A DNA stretch of 64,000 nucleotides from a virus (taxonomy: Duplodnaviria > Caudoviricetes), in the IMG/VR virus record IMGVR_UViG_3300008259_002957; one strand, 5' to 3'. This document shows, piece after piece, positions 47,798-64,000 of the stretch. Below the pieces are notes generated by a model. The model ran no database searches and was not told the origin of the DNA. It worked only from the letters and a program-made list of their open reading frames with translations. Positions within the stretch are counted from its first letter, which is position 1. Every line of letters starts with the position of its first letter. The position numbers and the translations under genes are program-made.

Positions 47798-48719
47798 ATT
47801 TAGAGTGCTTGACTATGATATAATTTATTTGTCATATGACGAGCCAAACGCTGAAAAAAATTATGCAGACTTGTGTAAAAAAATTCCATGGGCAAAACGT
47901 GTACATGGTGTCAAAGGCAGTGATGCTGCACACAAAGCCTGTGCTAGACTAAGCGAAACTGACAGATTCATCACAGTCGACGGCGATAATGTTATCAGCC
48001 AAGAATTTCTTACAAAAGAATTTGATTTTGACGAAAACAGAGATCTAGAAAAGTGTGTTATTAGTTGGACTGCCCGTAATACAATTAATGGATTAATGTA
48101 TGGCAATGGCGGCCTAAAATGTTGGCCAAAAGAATATGTTTTGAACATGCGTACACACGAAAACGCAGATCCTAACAATCCACATGCACAGGTAGATTTT
48201 TGCTGGGATCTTGAATATATCCAAATGAACAGTTGTTATAGTGAAATCTACAACAACGCTACACCGCAACAAGCATGGCGTGCAGGATTTAGAGAAGGTG
48301 TTAAAATGGCACTGGACCGTGGTGTCAAGCCGACTGTAGAAGCATTTAAAAAGAATCATTGGAAAAATCTACACAGACTTTATATTTGGCTCATGGTTGG
48401 CGCAGATGTTGAGAACGGTATGTGGGGCATATACGGTGCTAGAGAAGGCCTTTATAAAACCATGCTTACTGACTGGGATTATGTAAATGTTCGTGACTTT
48501 GATTGGCTAAATGAGTATTGGGAAAACACTGTTACTAAAAAAGTAGACGAAGAAAATCTTGTTCGTAAGTGTGAAGACTTAGCAGACGTACTTATTCCAG
48601 TTCTAGATTTGCCGATTGCAGCATATCCACTAGAAGCAGATCAAAGTAAATTCTTTAAAACCGTTTATCAAAACCCAGCAAGAACTACTAATCAGCAGTT
48701 CATAGATAGAGAAGATTAA
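47790..48719 (+). CDS. Glycosyltransferase-like protein (GT2-like GT-A fold)
   Basis: DIIYLSYDEP, AHKACA and FITVDGDN (DxD-like). Confidence 0.55.
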   Translation: MGKFRVLDYDIIYLSYDEPNAEKNYADLCKKIPWAKRVHGVKGSDAAHKACARLSETDRFITVDGDNVISQEFLTKEFDFDENRDLEKCVISWTARNTINGLMYGNGGLKCWPKEYVLNMRTHENADPNNPHAQVDFCWDLEYIQMNSCYSEIYNNATPQQAWRAGFREGVKMALDRGVKPTVEAFKKNHWKNLHRLYIWLMVGADVENGMWGIYGAREGLYKTMLTDWDYVNVRDFDWLNEYWENTVTKKVDEENLVRKCEDLADVLIPVLDLPIAAYPLEADQSKFFKTVYQNPARTTNQQFIDRED

Positions 48720-50101
48720 TGTCAAAAACACAGGATTACATTAAAAATGTAAACGACGTTACTACACGACATTTTAGCCCAACATTTTGTTTTGCTAAAT
48801 GGCATCATACAACAATTTATTTGCAAACTGGAGAAACACACAGTTGTTATCATCCTGCCCCTCACAAAATTTCAGTAGATGAATTGTTAACCAATCCTAG
48901 TGCATTACACAATACACAGCAAAAAAAGCAAGAGCGTAGAGAAATGCTCGAGGGCAAACAACCAAAAGGTTGTCAATATTGCTGGAACATTGAAAATATG
49001 GGCAAAGACTACGTAAGTGATAGACACATACGCAGTGCTAGTATCTATAACGAACAACGTCTACAAGAAATTAAATTTAATCCTTGGGACTTTAACGTAA
49101 ATCCTGAGTATATTGAAATTTCATTTGGTAACGAATGTAACTTCCGTTGTGGATATTGCCATCCTAAGGCCAGTAGCCGCTTTCACAATGAAATACGACA
49201 GCACGGTCCGTATGATATGGTAAACAATCATCGCTGTGACATTGACTGGTTTAAAGTCTATGATGAAGATAACAATCCTTATCTTCATGCTTGGTGGAAA
49301 TGGTGGCCGGAGGTTAGTAAAACTCTGAACATTTTACGTGTTACTGGCGGCGAACCAACAATTCAAAAAAGTACATACAAACTATTTGATTTACTAGAGC
49401 AAGATCCTAAGCCCAATCTCGAACTAAACGTCAACAGCAACCTTGGCGGCAAAGAACGTCAACTTGAAAAGTTTACTGATGCTGTAAACAGTTTGCTATC
49501 TCAAAATAAGATTAAACAATTTAAGTTATTTACAAGTGTTGACACTTGGAATGAACGTGCTGAATACATTCGTGATGGCCTTGACATAGAAGTATTTGAA
49601 AGAAACTTAGATTATTTTTTGCGTAATACAACTGCTCCAGTTACATTTATGATTACGTTTAATATTTTTAGTGTAACTACGTTTCAAACTCTGCTTGAAA
49701 AAATTCTCGAATGGCGTCGTAAATACAACGATGTTGAAAGCAGTCGTTGGCAGCGTATTCATTTTGATACACCTTATTTAAAAGAACCTCTACAATACGA
49801 CATCAATATTCTTCCTAAAGAACGATATATGCAGTATATGGAACAGCATCTACAGTTTATCAAAGACAACGTTCAAGAAGGTAGCAAAGTTCATTTTAGT
49901 GAACTTGAATATGAAAAGTTTAGACGTGTAGTTGATTACATGCGTAGCACAGAATATGCTCCTGAAAAAATACACGAAGGTAGAAAAGACTTTTGGAATT
50001 TCTTTAAAGAACAAGATCGTAGACGTAACATAGATTTTGAATCTACTTTTCCTGAAATGAACGATTTTTTCCAACTGTGTAAGCAAGCAGCAAATGGATA
50101 A
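48719..50101 (+). CDS. Radical SAM enzyme with N-terminal twitch/SPASM-like Fe-S domain
   Basis: FCFAKW...HSCYHP...CQYCW, then CNFRCGYC and VTGGEPT. Confidence 0.9.
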   Translation: MSKTQDYIKNVNDVTTRHFSPTFCFAKWHHTTIYLQTGETHSCYHPAPHKISVDELLTNPSALHNTQQKKQERREMLEGKQPKGCQYCWNIENMGKDYVSDRHIRSASIYNEQRLQEIKFNPWDFNVNPEYIEISFGNECNFRCGYCHPKASSRFHNEIRQHGPYDMVNNHRCDIDWFKVYDEDNNPYLHAWWKWWPEVSKTLNILRVTGGEPTIQKSTYKLFDLLEQDPKPNLELNVNSNLGGKERQLEKFTDAVNSLLSQNKIKQFKLFTSVDTWNERAEYIRDGLDIEVFERNLDYFLRNTTAPVTFMITFNIFSVTTFQTLLEKILEWRRKYNDVESSRWQRIHFDTPYLKEPLQYDINILPKERYMQYMEQHLQFIKDNVQEGSKVHFSELEYEKFRRVVDYMRSTEYAPEKIHEGRKDFWNFFKEQDRRRNIDFESTFPEMNDFFQLCKQAANG

Positions 50102-51320
50102 AGATTACTTATTAAACAAGAGCAAAACGTTTTGCATGTTTCCGTGGATACATCTCAATGTTACTCCGCTAGGTAATGTTTATCCTTGCTGTAGTTCTGA
50201 TTATACAGATCCTTTTGCTAACGTTAAAGATGCTTCACTTGCTGAAATTTTTAATAATGACCGAATGAAGCAATTGCGTTTAGATATGTTGTCTGACAAA
50301 AATAATAAAATTTGTACATACTGCTACAAACACGAAGAAAGTTCGCCGTTTAGTTTTAGGAAATATAGTATAGAACACTTTGGCAAAGACTTTGATGAGT
50401 TAGTTACTTTAACAAACAGTGACGGAAGTATGCCACAATTTTCTATGAAATACTTTGATGTAAGATTTTCTAACATCTGTAACATGAAGTGTCGTACTTG
50501 TGGTGCAGAATTTTCCAGCCAATGGGCTCAAGAAATGAAGCAACACGAAGCAGTTAGCAAAGATTATAGAATTATAAATCACGCCGATAGTACAGGTCAA
50601 CTTTTAGAAGAAATTAAAAATCAAGTTGAAAATATTGATCTAGCATACTTTGCTGGCGGCGAGCCACTAATTACAGAAGAACATTATATAATTCTTGAAG
50701 AAATGATTCGCAAAGGTGTAAACAAAAATATTACACTTCGTTACAATACTAATATGAGTAATTTTAAATATAAAAAATACAACGTACTTGATCTTTGGAG
50801 TAGATTTAAGCGTGTAGAAATCTCAGCAAGTATTGATCACTACGGAGAACGTGCTGAATATATACGTCACGGAACAGACTGGGCTGTTGTAGAATCTAAT
50901 TTAAAGTCTATTAGAGACTTAGATTACATTGACTATCAGTACAACACAGTACTAAGTGTTTTTAATTATGCAACACTCGATCAATTTTATAACTATCTTA
51001 TTGAAAAAGATCTGTTGCGTAAAAAAGACATGATTAGCATCTATAGAGCGTTAACTCCTTCTTATTATGCTGCAACAATTTTACCAAAATCTATCAAGCA
51101 ATTTGGAACAGACAAATTAAATGATTTGCATGATTTTATGATTGCTGGAGATTGGTATCAAGCAATGCATATTCAAGATGCTATTAGATTTACAAATCAA
51201 ACAGACGAATGGGATAAAGAACGCGAACAGTTTACACATCATACACAAAGACGTGATAAAATTCGTGGAGAAAGTTTTACAAGTGTGTTTCCAGAATTGA
51301 GTGAAATGTTAAATGGATAA
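50094..51320 (+). CDS. Radical SAM enzyme with N-terminal twitch/SPASM-like domain
   Basis: FCMFPWIH...PCC...CTYC, then CNMKCRTC and FAGGEPL. Confidence 0.9.
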   Translation: MDKDYLLNKSKTFCMFPWIHLNVTPLGNVYPCCSSDYTDPFANVKDASLAEIFNNDRMKQLRLDMLSDKNNKICTYCYKHEESSPFSFRKYSIEHFGKDFDELVTLTNSDGSMPQFSMKYFDVRFSNICNMKCRTCGAEFSSQWAQEMKQHEAVSKDYRIINHADSTGQLLEEIKNQVENIDLAYFAGGEPLITEEHYIILEEMIRKGVNKNITLRYNTNMSNFKYKKYNVLDLWSRFKRVEISASIDHYGERAEYIRHGTDWAVVESNLKSIRDLDYIDYQYNTVLSVFNYATLDQFYNYLIEKDLLRKKDMISIYRALTPSYYAATILPKSIKQFGTDKLNDLHDFMIAGDWYQAMHIQDAIRFTNQTDEWDKEREQFTHHTQRRDKIRGESFTSVFPELSEMLNG

Positions 51321-63063: not shown

Positions 63064-63658
63064 TTTAGATGATGTGGCGTTTTGGATGGATGCTATTAGA
63101 AATGCAGAAAATCAATACAGTGTTCTTGAAAGTTTTTGGAAAGGACAACTAAAAAGTAAGGTGTGGTTAATTGAAAATCTGTCTAAATTAGTTCAAACTC
63201 AAAACAATCGTGTTGTAATCCACGGTGGGTGGAATGGTGTCTTATCTGCACTGCTCTTTAATTCAACAATCGATATAAAACACATTACAAGTTTAGATAT
63301 AGATGTTTCCTGCGAAGAAGTTGCTGCAATGATTAATAAACGATACGAAATAGAAAATCGATTTTGTGCAGTAACAGCAGATATGTCTGTTTATCAGTAT
63401 CAAGAAATTCCGTCTATTGTAATTAACACTAGTACAGAACATATTACTCAAGAACAATATAATACTTGGTTAAGCAATGTTCCCAAAGACACATTAGTTG
63501 TAATACAAAACAACAACTATCATAGTTTACCCGAACATATAAGAACTTTTGATACTGTTGATGACTTTGCTGATTCATCACAGTTAAACAACATACTTTG
63601 TAAAGATGTATTAGAATTGCCTCTTTACAACAGATTTTTAATTATTGGCTACAAATGA
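63053..63658 (+). CDS. Class I SAM-dependent methyltransferase-like protein
   Basis: VVIHGGWNG (motif I-like), SLDID, TADM and INTSTEH. Confidence 0.65.
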   Translation: MKVDLDDVAFWMDAIRNAENQYSVLESFWKGQLKSKVWLIENLSKLVQTQNNRVVIHGGWNGVLSALLFNSTIDIKHITSLDIDVSCEEVAAMINKRYEIENRFCAVTADMSVYQYQEIPSIVINTSTEHITQEQYNTWLSNVPKDTLVVIQNNNYHSLPEHIRTFDTVDDFADSSQLNNILCKDVLELPLYNRFLIIGYK

Positions 63659-64000
63659 CGTGGTATGAATCAACAAATCCTGAAGTAAAAAAATGGCAAG
63701 ATTTTATCGAAGATCGTGCTACTAAAACTTTTTGTGTGTTGCCTTGGATACATCTTGCCACAAGACCAAATGGCGATATGAGATTGTGTTGTAGTGCAAA
63801 TGCAAGTGGTGCAGGTGTAGACCATACTCTTGGAATTGTAAAGACTGCTACAGGCGAACATTTGAATTTTTCTAACACTACTCCAACGGAGGCATGGAAC
63901 AGTGAATACATGCGCGGTGTTAGAAAAACCATGATGGATGAAAAAATACCAGTTAGTTGCTCTAAATGTTTTTCAGAAGAATCAAAGGGAGTTGCTAGTA
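63655..64000 (+). CDS. Fifth radical SAM-type enzyme (N-terminal twitch-like domain); partial, runs off the right edge; missing from the ORF track
   Basis: My translation MTWYES...TFCVLPWIHLATRPNGDMRLCC...AWNSEYMRGVRKTMM...CSKCF matches the N-termini of 50094 and 51313; ATGA overlap. Confidence 0.8.
   Translation, partial: MTWYESTNPEVKKWQDFIEDRATKTFCVLPWIHLATRPNGDMRLCCSANASGAGVDHTLGIVKTATGEHLNFSNTTPTEAWNSEYMRGVRKTMMDEKIPVSCSKCFSEESKGVAS

What the first reader, a model, noticed from the sequence alone, without database searches (positions are those of the whole stretch)
48719..64000. At least five radical SAM enzymes, four with an N-terminal ('permuted') twitch/SPASM-like Fe-S domain
Seen: four tandem rSAM genes (48719-53551) and a fifth partial one at 63655 that the ORF track misses. 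In four, the Cys-rich FC..PW.H...CC...CxxC module precedes the CxxxCxxC core; the fifth partial gene shows only this N-terminal module within the window. Known: SPASM/twitch domains are normally C-terminal (anSME, PqqE, BtrN, MoaA), and BtrN, NeoN, DesII and AprD4 are rSAM sugar-tailoring enzymes. Inference: a family expansion doing uncharacterised radical chemistry on the glycan or on virion proteins, which is costly in Fe-S and oxygen-sensitive for a phage.
Basis: partly seen in the sequence, partly recalled or inferred. Interest (0 to 1): 0.72.

Follow-up and report, generated by a model that had tools for sequence, protein, structure and literature searches.

The report
Phage radical-SAM glycan-tailoring gene cluster
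A giant freshwater phage carries, just behind its tail-fibre genes, a conserved block of iron-sulfur "radical SAM" enzymes from a catalogued but never studied family, set among sugar-transfer and amino-sugar enzymes; it most likely makes a heavily decorated sugar chain of unknown structure and target.

Summary
Window 48719-53551 encodes four tandem, overlapping radical SAM (rSAM) genes, and 63655-64000 starts a fifth.

- **N-terminal twitch:** three tandem genes and the partial one score above the curated cut-off of NCBIfam NF033640 (N_Twi_rSAM). Their N-terminal module matches one solved protein only, BtrN, at its C-terminal twitch domain, with all four cluster cysteines in register.
- **Fourth tandem gene (52589):** it lacks this module. 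It has the usual order, rSAM core then a C-terminal twitch-like domain.
- **Novelty of the architecture:** the permuted order is real but already catalogued. No paper on the family's function was found.
- **Scale:** the phage record holds 16 rSAM genes in about 47 kb. Related phage fragments give 4-21 matches, and the four-gene cassette recurs in 8 of 10 of them and in part in Bdellovibrio-like genome bins.
- **Neighbours:** glycosyltransferase-like genes (GT8-like, GT2-like, weakly GT10-like), a StrB1-type amidinotransferase, a short DegT-like protein and a sugar epimerase/dehydratase. A T4-type late promoter motif precedes the operon.
- **Best reading (0.55):** radical tailoring of sugar or aminocyclitol units of a phage-made glycan; target unknown.

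This scan has reported islands of this kind before, on this genome and on at least 22 others.

The parts
43112..43119 (+). T4-type late promoter motif TATAAATA, 26 nt before the first gene of the + strand operon 43146-54281
   Evidence: In the 113-kb record, 9 of 21 ATAAATA sites lie within 60 nt upstream of a same-strand start, where 2.2% of positions qualify. These include sites before baseplate and fibre genes.
43146..45141 (+). Two paralogous Ser/Thr-rich (26-29% S+T), Cys-free proteins (309 and 342 aa) following the tail-fibre genes; candidate fibre-associated or acceptor proteins
   Evidence: 31% identical to each other; no Pfam or PHROG hit
45543..47220 (+). Two GT8-like (glycogenin-like) glycosyltransferase paralogues, 45543-46391 and 46381-47220
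   Evidence: The profile of A2 hits glycogenin-2 (E 5e-5) and glycogenin-1 (E 1e-3) over the DxD region. D92 and H258 are invariant. Atlas leads.
47790..48719 (+). Highly conserved GT2-like protein with invariant DGDN, stop overlapping the start of the first rSAM; paralogue at w92750
   Evidence: Atlas automatic name only; invariant residues in A3; no PDB or Pfam hit; paralogue
48719..50101 (+). N_Twi_rSAM, orthogroup A (twitch Cys 24, 43, 85, 88; core C140/144/147); the best conserved member of the cassette
   Evidence: NF033640 311 bits; 55-85% identity in 27 of 29 related phage loci; clade support 100
50094..51320 (+). N_Twi_rSAM, orthogroup B (twitch C14, C32, C74, C77; core C129/133/136)
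   Evidence: NF033640 383 bits; SPASM at 14-78 and Radical_SAM at 124-286; AF2 model pLDDT 92.6; core Z 13.0 to anSME and 12.0 to BlsE
51313..52596 (+). N_Twi_rSAM, orthogroup C (twitch C14, C32, C74, C77; core C130/134/137)
   Evidence: NF033640 384 bits; N-terminal 110 aa match only BtrN's twitch domain; orthologues next to a 52589-like gene in Bdellovibrionota bins
52589..53551 (+). Conventional-order rSAM: core C25/29/32 and a C-terminal twitch-like domain (invariant C260, G272, C279, C302, C307, C309)
   Evidence: Aligns over almost its full length with BlsE (Z 15.0, residues 12-320), EpeE, SkfB, anSME and BtrN.
53514..54281 (+). DUF6071 protein; possibly SGNH-hydrolase-like, from reading the GCSHS motif by eye
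   Evidence: PF19547 E 1.3e-10; the motif reading is inference
54250..55599 (-). Member of a five-copy paralogous family, weakly GT10 (fucosyltransferase)-like
   Evidence: A5 HMM. Family link to 61915-63063 has hhalign probability 98.9%, and that gene has a sub-threshold PF00852 hit. No PDB sequence hit.
56414..57394 (-). StrB1-type amidinotransferase; paralogue at w88332
   Evidence: PDB 1BWD inosamine-phosphate amidinotransferase, E 1.1e-64 over the full length; 66% identical to ORF309 of Synechococcus phage S-SCSM2R
58177..58764 (-). Short (195 aa) DegT/DnrJ/EryC1-like protein
   Evidence: PF01041 E 5e-15; 51.5% identical to S-SCSM2R ORF305, which is the same length
58788..60959 (+). Two more members of the GT10-like family (58788-59831 and 59883-60959)
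   Evidence: 41% identical to each other
61025..61936 (+). NAD-dependent sugar epimerase/dehydratase (SDR)
   Evidence: PF01370 E 1.6e-39; PF16363 E 1.6e-36
61915..63063 (+). GT10-like family member
   Evidence: PF00852 E 3.7e-4, below the cut-off; hhalign against A5 E 2e-17
63655..64000 (+). 5' part of a fourth N_Twi_rSAM (twitch C27, C45, C102, C105); the gene continues to w65049 in the genome record

Best explanation
Shown: the four tandem genes and the partial fifth are true radical SAM enzymes. Three tandem genes and the partial one belong to the catalogued, uncharacterised family NF033640 (N_Twi_rSAM). In this family a BtrN-type twitch domain with four Cys, predicted to bind one auxiliary [4Fe-4S] cluster, sits before the SAM-cleaving core instead of after it. 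The fourth tandem gene has the usual order. Shown: the cassette of three ancient N_Twi orthogroups plus one C-twitch rSAM is conserved as a unit in many aquatic jumbo phages. It lies in an operon that also holds glycosyltransferase-like genes and starts at a late-type promoter motif behind the tail-fibre genes. That operon opens an island of at least 47 kb with 16 rSAM genes, about 9 glycosyltransferase-like genes, two StrB1-type amidinotransferases, a DegT-like protein and a sugar epimerase/dehydratase. Inferred: each rSAM abstracts a hydrogen atom from a sugar or aminocyclitol carbon of an activated sugar or a growing glycan. The fully Cys-ligated auxiliary cluster then takes the electron, as in BtrN and anSME, so the step is a dehydrogenation; epimerisation or methylation is possible in other paralogues. 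The resulting keto groups would be aminated and amidinated by the neighbouring enzymes. The product would be a heavily decorated glycan made late in infection. The virion fibres are the likeliest target and the host surface the next.
For: Family membership: NF033640 scores 311-390 bits against a cut-off of 170. Permuted twitch: Pfam SPASM lies N-terminal to the core. The N-terminal 110 aa hit only BtrN, residues 165-239, with four Cys in register. These Cys are conserved across 49 sequences: C32, C74 and C77 invariant, C14 in at least 90%. The model is confident (pLDDT 92.6), and its core is closest to anSME, BlsE, CteB, MoaA and SkfB. The C-twitch gene is supported. Cassette conservation; three orthogroups; di- and tri-module fusions. 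Sugar context: GT8-like, GT2-like lead, GT10-like family, SDR and DegT, amidinotransferase. A Bdellovibrionia bin has the rSAM pair next to an SDR, a methyltransferase and a NodU/CmcH-type carbamoyltransferase. The cultured cyanophage S-SCSM2R has a compact operon of glycosyltransferases, a DegT-like gene, an rSAM and an amidinotransferase (PMC12801897). Late promoter motif. Position behind a giant virion protein and the fibres; compare the host recognition cluster in PMC7029224.
Against: No substrate is shown. The closest solved folds include as many peptide or protein modifiers (anSME, CteB, SkfB, EpeE, SuiB) as sugar or nucleotide enzymes (BlsE, BtrN, DesII, viperin). Some family members are fused to TPR or Sel1 repeats, which usually bind proteins. 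The one isolate context examined, Reichenbachiella, has no sugar genes nearby. The GT2-like and GT10-like assignments are weak. No sugar nucleotidyltransferase was identified in the island. Fe-S binding and the late timing are inferred from sequence only.
Confidence: 0.55

Rival explanations
1. The rSAM enzymes act directly on proteins or peptides. They would install epimerised, cross-linked, methylated or oxidised residues in virion proteins or in an unrecognised precursor peptide, in the manner of RiPP maturases. The glycosyltransferases would then be a separate activity in the same island.
For: The top structural neighbours are RiPP or protein maturases: CteB, anSME, SkfB, EpeE, SuiB and ChlB. 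TPR or Sel1 repeats are fused in 4 of 10 extended family members examined. The wider island holds an Asp/Asn beta-hydroxylase-like protein, a TauD-like protein, a 2OG oxygenase and a B12-rSAM C-methyltransferase-like gene, a toolkit that recalls proteusin pathways. Two Ser/Thr-rich proteins open the operon.
Against: No PqqD-like recognition element or any other Pfam domain was found in the rSAMs apart from SPASM and Radical_SAM. No Cys-rich or repetitive small ORF lies in the few intergenic gaps. The cassette overlaps a GT-like gene, which suggests translational coupling, and it travels with GT8-like genes. The only sequence-level PDB match of the twitch module is BtrN, an aminocyclitol enzyme.
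Confidence: 0.2
2. The island makes a diffusible small molecule, an aminoglycoside-like or guanidino-sugar metabolite, rather than a polymer attached to virion or cell.
For: A StrB1-type amidinotransferase, a DegT-like protein and a BtrN-type twitch rSAM recall streptomycin and butirosin logic. The authors of PMC12801897 called the S-SCSM2R homologues 'antibiotic synthesis genes'. A carbamoyltransferase lies in the Bdellovibrionia cluster.
Against: No cyclitol synthase, kinase, exporter or resistance gene was recognised. Nine GT-like genes are more than a pseudo-oligosaccharide needs. The position behind the tail fibres and the late promoter motif fit a structural role.
Confidence: 0.1
3. The enzymes hypermodify the phage DNA by building a sugar or amino adduct on a base, as in glucosyl-hmC or 7-deazaguanine systems.
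For: T4-like phages commonly glycosylate DNA. There is a weak QueC-like hit at w74044-74739 (E 2e-4). Amidinotransferase-like genes occur in Campylobacter phages that, from memory, carry 7-amidino-7-deazaguanine.
Against: None of the rSAMs reaches the QueE cut-offs. No DpdA, hydroxymethylase or base-modifying enzyme was seen in the 113 kb. The operon carries a late-type promoter motif shared with baseplate genes, whereas DNA precursor enzymes are expected early.
Confidence: 0.07

Closest known systems
NCBIfam NF033640, N_Twi_rSAM ('twitch domain-containing radical SAM protein')
   Same: Three tandem genes and the partial one score 311-390 bits against a cut-off of 170, over the full model length. 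They show the same order, N-terminal twitch then rSAM core.
   Different: Nothing differs in architecture; they are members. The family has no assigned function, and no paper on it was found. What is unusual here is 6 members plus 10 other rSAMs in one phage record.
BtrN, the butirosin 2-deoxy-scyllo-inosamine dehydrogenase (PDB 4M7S/4M7T)
   Same: It is the only solved protein matched by the N-terminal module (E 1e-4), with all four auxiliary-cluster Cys in register. The rSAM core belongs to the same SPASM/twitch clade. An aminotransferase-family gene and an amidinotransferase lie nearby, as in aminocyclitol pathways.
   Different: The domain order is reversed: the twitch is C-terminal in BtrN. 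Similarity outside the twitch is low. These proteins are 400-460 aa against 250-270 aa for BtrN, with a helical C-terminal extension. The substrate is unknown.
Host recognition cluster (HRC) of pelagimyophages and cyanomyophages (Zaragoza-Solas et al. 2020, PMC7029224)
   Same: A variable island inside the structural module of T4-like aquatic phages, behind a giant baseplate or virion protein and the tail fibres. [quoted passage not shown]
   Different: The paper only mentions the cassettes. Here the island is larger, at least 47 kb against a mean of 34-45 kb, and holds 16 rSAMs. The far boundary (gp14) is not visible because the record ends.
ORF301-310 of Synechococcus phage S-SCSM2R (PQ898602.1; PMC12801897)
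   Same: An operon of glycosyltransferases, a 195-aa DegT-like protein (51.5% identical), an rSAM, 2OG oxygenases and an amidinotransferase (66% identical).
   Different: It has one small rSAM (266 aa), only weakly like w83069, and no N_Twi cassette in the region examined. The authors annotated the genes as 'antibiotic synthesis genes' without any test.
SPASM/twitch maturases anSME, CteB, SkfB, EpeE and the sugar-nucleoside enzyme BlsE
   Same: They share the fold of the rSAM core and an auxiliary-cluster domain (Z 11-15).
   Different: No NCBIfam model of these families reaches its cut-off. There is no RRE. In the N_Twi genes the auxiliary domain is permuted.

Membership tests
NCBIfam NF033640 N_Twi_rSAM | Whole-protein HMM score above the curated cut-off (170 bits) over the full model | tested here: met
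   311.1, 383.4 and 384.4 bits for 48719, 50094 and 51313. 390.3 bits for the full-length gene that starts at 63655. 52589 scores 37.6 bits, so it is not a member.
NCBIfam NF033640 N_Twi_rSAM | Twitch/SPASM-type Cys module located N-terminal to the CX3CX2C core | tested here: met
   PF13186 lies at residues 14-78 and 27-105, before the core at about 129-136. 48719 has no Pfam SPASM hit but keeps the four Cys in alignment A1.
Twitch domain (BtrN type, one auxiliary 4Fe-4S) | Four cluster-ligating Cys in the BtrN pattern | tested here: met
   phmmer of residues 1-110 of 51313 finds BtrN 165-239, with the C, PC and CxxC positions aligned. C32, C74 and C77 are invariant and C14 is in at least 90% of 49 sequences.
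Twitch domain (BtrN type, one auxiliary 4Fe-4S) | Actual binding of a second [4Fe-4S] cluster | not testable with these tools
   Needs anaerobic reconstitution, Fe/S quantification, and EPR or Mossbauer spectroscopy
Radical SAM superfamily | CX3CX2C motif, a GGE-type SAM-binding motif and a partial TIM-barrel fold | tested here: met
   Motifs (invariant G188 G189 E190; G75 G76 E77). PF04055 hits. Fold Z 13-15 to solved rSAMs.
   Best scores against cut-offs: MoaA 34 vs 284; NrdG 23 vs 131; QueE 21 vs 260; viperin 34 vs 180
RiPP rSAM/SPASM maturases | RRE (PqqD-like) leader-binding domain and an adjacent precursor peptide | tested here: inconclusive
   No domain besides SPASM and Radical_SAM at E<0.01. 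No obvious precursor in the gaps. A small conserved peptide cannot be excluded.
Host recognition cluster of T4-like aquatic phages (PMC7029224) | Variable island between the giant VrlC-type virion protein with tail fibres and the neck gene gp14, holding glycosyltransferases | tested here: inconclusive
   A giant 4622-aa virion protein (phrog_10938), tail-fibre PHROGs and GT-like genes are present. The name VrlC and the gp14 boundary could not be checked because the record ends at w95800.
Amidinotransferase (StrB1/AGAT) for 56414-57394 | Full-length homology to a solved amidinotransferase | tested here: met
   1BWD E 1.1e-64, residues 6-323 against 7-339; also AGAT, SxtG and HsvA. The catalytic residues were not mapped.

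The most novel reading that the evidence does not exclude
The conserved cassette of three N-twitch rSAMs plus one C-twitch rSAM carries out a multi-step radical transformation with no characterised counterpart. It would produce an unprecedented sugar, for example a guanidino, branched or carbon-extended sugar. That sugar would be displayed on the fibres of abundant freshwater and marine jumbo phages and would help decide host recognition. Oxygen-sensitive chemistry would then be run routinely by phages in oxic surface waters.
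Probability: 0.3. Interest if true: 0.8.

Novelty: new variant of a known kind. Interest (0 to 1): 0.6.

Why it matters
N_Twi_rSAM is a very large family, with at least 7,000 clusters at 50% identity, and no member has been studied. Here it appears as a fixed four-gene cassette, tied to glycosyltransferase-like genes and probably expressed late. This gives enzymologists a defined minimal unit, and cultured carriers exist in which to test it (S-SCSM2R, Vibrio phage K566). If the product decorates virions or host surfaces, it bears on host range and phage recognition in lakes and oceans. It also raises the question of how a phage supplies 16 or more Fe-S enzymes during an infection.

Tried and rejected
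- **Nucleotide search against cultured phages:** no match. By protein, only distant hits at 22-25% identity, in KVP40-like Vibrio phages and Ralstonia phage RsoM2USA.
- **Complex prediction** of the 51313 and 52589 proteins: no verdict (score 0.00). This is not evidence either way.
- **RNA evidence:** no RNA holder was listed among the sequencing runs, so nothing can be said on expression.
- **Host markers:** psbA (PF00124), ferredoxin (PF00111) and flavodoxin (PF00258) were not found in the 113-kb fragment or in four relatives. These are fragments, so absence is not shown.
- **PDB profile searches:** the GT2-like family (A3) and the GT10-like family (A5) gave nothing. hhalign of A3 against A2 was not significant.
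- **Reichenbachiella isolate context:** uninformative; MbnP/MbnH-like genes and a pirin.
- **Whole 374-kb relative contig:** could not be searched because the record is not held.
- **Literature:** no paper names NF033640 or its function.
- **Tree:** the careful search did not finish, so only the quick tree is reported.
- **SGNH-like reading** of 55421 and 57415: rests on a short motif only.

Full report
**Observation.** The four tandem ORFs 48719-50101, 50094-51320, 51313-52596 and 52589-53551 lie on the + strand, and each start overlaps the previous stop. An ORF open at the window end begins at 63655. The window is the minus strand of bases 31798-95797 of a 113,432-bp IMG/VR virus record, estimated to be about one third complete. 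In that record the fifth gene runs on to window-equivalent position 65049, giving 464 aa with its CX3CX2C at residues 159-166.

NCBIfam places 48719, 50094 and 51313 in NF033640 (N_Twi_rSAM) at 311, 383 and 384 bits against a cut-off of 170. The full-length fifth gene scores 390 bits. Pfam puts its SPASM model on residues 14-78, ahead of the Radical_SAM core. The fourth tandem gene, 52589, has its CX3CX2C at residues 25-32 and no N-terminal module. So the finding's title is right (four with the N-terminal module), while one sentence of its text miscounts.

**The N-terminal module is a twitch domain in permuted order.**
- In an alignment of 49 family members, including six paralogues of this phage, C32, C74 and C77 are invariant. 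C14 and C33 are kept in at least 90% of sequences. The core residues C129, C133 and C136 and the GGE motif are also conserved.
- The first 110 residues of the 51313 protein, searched against every sequence in the PDB, hit one protein only. This is BtrN, at residues 165-239, its C-terminal twitch domain, at E 1e-4. The C, PC and CxxC positions are aligned.
- The AlphaFold2 model of the 50094 protein is confident (pLDDT 92.6).
- Its residues 117-371 superpose on the cores of anSME (Z 13.0), BlsE (12.0), CteB (11.9), MoaA and SkfB (Foldseek). The N-terminal 116 residues stay outside these sequential alignments, as expected for a permutation.
- I could not read the coordinates, so the spatial position of the module is untested.

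**The fourth tandem gene is a conventional relative.** Its family keeps C25/C29/C32 and, near the C-terminus, C260, G272, C279, C302, C307 and C309. Its model (pLDDT 86.4) aligns over nearly its whole length with the twitch or SPASM enzymes BlsE (Z 15.0, residues 12-320), EpeE, SkfB, anSME and BtrN. None of the five genes approaches the curated cut-offs of QueE, NrdG, MoaA or viperin.

**Scale.** The record holds 16 rSAM genes between window-equivalent positions 48.7 and 95.8 kb:
- six N_Twi genes;
- five of the 52589 type;
- three of a third, SPASM-like type with a CQASCPMC core;
- one other rSAM;
- one 615-aa B12-binding, KedN5-like enzyme.

The record ends inside the last gene. The paralogues are 22-36% identical, so they are old.

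Ten related phage records give 4 to 21 matches to the same model. The block of about 463, 419, 427 and 322 aa recurs in the same order in eight of them. Across 29 related loci, the 48719 orthologue is the best conserved, at 55-85% identity in 27 of them.

A quick maximum-likelihood tree separates the three tandem genes into three orthogroups, with supports of 100, 88 and 97. Two of these groups include sequences from Bdellovibrionota genome bins. The careful tree search did not finish, and some branches are long.

The family as a whole is very large. It has 7,076 clusters at 50% identity with E<=1e-30. It includes proteins with two or three N_Twi modules fused, and others fused to TPR or Sel1 repeats.

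Near-identical DNA is present in 20 sequencing runs from 14 studies, mostly labelled as lake or fresh water.

**Surroundings.** Upstream lie a portal gene, baseplate genes, a 4622-aa virion protein (phrog_10938) and three paralogous fibre-like proteins. A TATAAATA motif sits 26 nt before 43146. In the whole record, 9 of 21 ATAAATA sites lie within 60 nt upstream of a same-strand start, although only 2.2% of positions qualify. Some of these sites precede baseplate and fibre genes. I therefore infer late transcription of the gene run 43146-54281.

That run holds, in order:
- two Ser/Thr-rich, Cys-free paralogues;
- two GT8-like proteins; their profile hits glycogenin-2 at E 5e-5, and a DxD aspartate and a His are invariant;
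- a very conserved protein with invariant DGDN, which the Atlas names GT2-like (a weak assignment);
- the four rSAMs;
- a DUF6071 protein.

Downstream of that run are:
- four in-window members (54250, 58788, 59883, 61915) of a five-copy family, the fifth lying beyond the window at w85209. One member has a sub-threshold GT10 hit over the TEK...PV..G motif, and there is no PDB support.
- A full-length StrB1-type amidinotransferase (E 1.1e-64), with a paralogue further on.
- A 195-aa DegT-like protein and a sugar epimerase/dehydratase.

Beyond the window the island adds an Asp/Asn-hydroxylase-like protein, a TauD-like protein and a cold-shock/2OG-oxygenase fusion.

**Relatives with names.**
- Synechococcus phage S-SCSM2R, which is cultured on WH7803, has an operon of glycosyltransferases, a DegT-like protein of the same 195 aa (51.5% identical), an rSAM, 2OG oxygenases and an amidinotransferase (66% identical). 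Its authors called these 'antibiotic synthesis genes' without testing them (PMC12801897).
- Vibrio phage K566 has tandem, distant N_Twi-like genes.
- A Bdellovibrionia bin places the N_Twi gene plus a 52589-like gene next to an SDR, a methyltransferase, a carbamoyltransferase and another rSAM/SPASM gene.
- Zaragoza-Solas et al. (PMC7029224) described a 'host recognition cluster' behind the giant baseplate protein of pelagimyophages and cyanomyophages. It is rich in glycosyltransferases, and they mention radical SAM cassettes there.
- No paper on NF033640 itself was found.

**Interpretation.** What is shown is membership, the permuted twitch, the conserved cassette and the sugar-type neighbourhood. 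What is inferred is the chemistry. The auxiliary cluster appears fully Cys-ligated, as in BtrN and anSME, which points to an electron-transfer role. The neighbours could convert a keto group to an amine and then to a guanidino group. I therefore favour radical dehydrogenation, with epimerisation or methylation in other paralogues, of sugar or aminocyclitol units of a phage-built glycan made late in infection (0.55).

The rivals are:
- direct modification of proteins or peptides (0.2), supported by the RiPP-like structural neighbours and the TPR fusions;
- a soluble aminoglycoside-like product (0.1);
- DNA hypermodification (0.07).

The target of the product is open: virion fibres, host surface or something else.

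**Novelty.** The architecture is already catalogued. Islands of this kind have been mentioned in print and were reported repeatedly by this scan, on this genome (e1-5337058) and on at least 22 others. What remains new is an uncharacterised, conserved four-gene radical cassette, and a phage that invests in at least 16 Fe-S enzymes.

Noticed in passing
window 23321-37189: A single 4622-aa ORF matching phrog_10938 (virion structural protein). It has internal matches to head-closure and baseplate-hub families. It is probably the VrlC-type giant baseplate protein of cyano- and pelagimyophages.
   Followed up: partly
whole record; for example window 43112, 57382, 19856, 37186: The T4 late-promoter core ATAAATA is rare (21 sites in 113 kb, both strands). 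Nine sites sit within 60 nt upstream of a same-strand start, against 2.2% expected by position. The site at 58769 (- strand) is only 4 nt from the start of the DegT-like gene.
   Followed up: partly
window 58177-58764 (-) and L075:11287-11868: A 195-aa DegT/AHBA-synthase-like protein, about half the usual length, is conserved at 51.5% identity and identical length in the marine cyanophage S-SCSM2R. It is a stable short form rather than a broken gene.
   Followed up: partly
proteins P0242-P0390, for example P0242, P0261, P0341, P0386; L050:3450-6770: The N_Twi family includes single polypeptides with two or three N_Twi modules, and others with Sel1 or TPR repeats. The tandem fusions suggest that neighbouring paralogues work together. 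The repeats hint at protein partners.
   Followed up: partly
G000 beyond the window: w77211-78086 (L014:2715-3587, -): Fusion of a cold-shock DNA/RNA-binding domain with a 2OG-Fe(II) oxygenase domain inside the island.
   Followed up: no
window 37824-43116: Three paralogous fibre-like proteins (32-40% identical) share an N-terminal module (phrog_14394/15511) and have differing C-terminal tail-fibre-like parts.
   Followed up: no
window 9789 and 20382: The window differs from the genome record laid in the Python box at two single positions. The cause was not examined.
   Followed up: no
L073 (Vibrio phage K566, OZ196521.1 161548-168284): A cultured Vibrio jumbo phage carries four tandem or near-tandem distant N_Twi-like rSAM genes. 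It could serve as an experimental model.
   Followed up: partly
L044 (1.7-kb contig binned as Flavobacteriaceae): Encodes a protein 61% identical to the 50094 product that nests among phage sequences in the tree. It is probably a phage fragment that was mis-binned.
   Followed up: no
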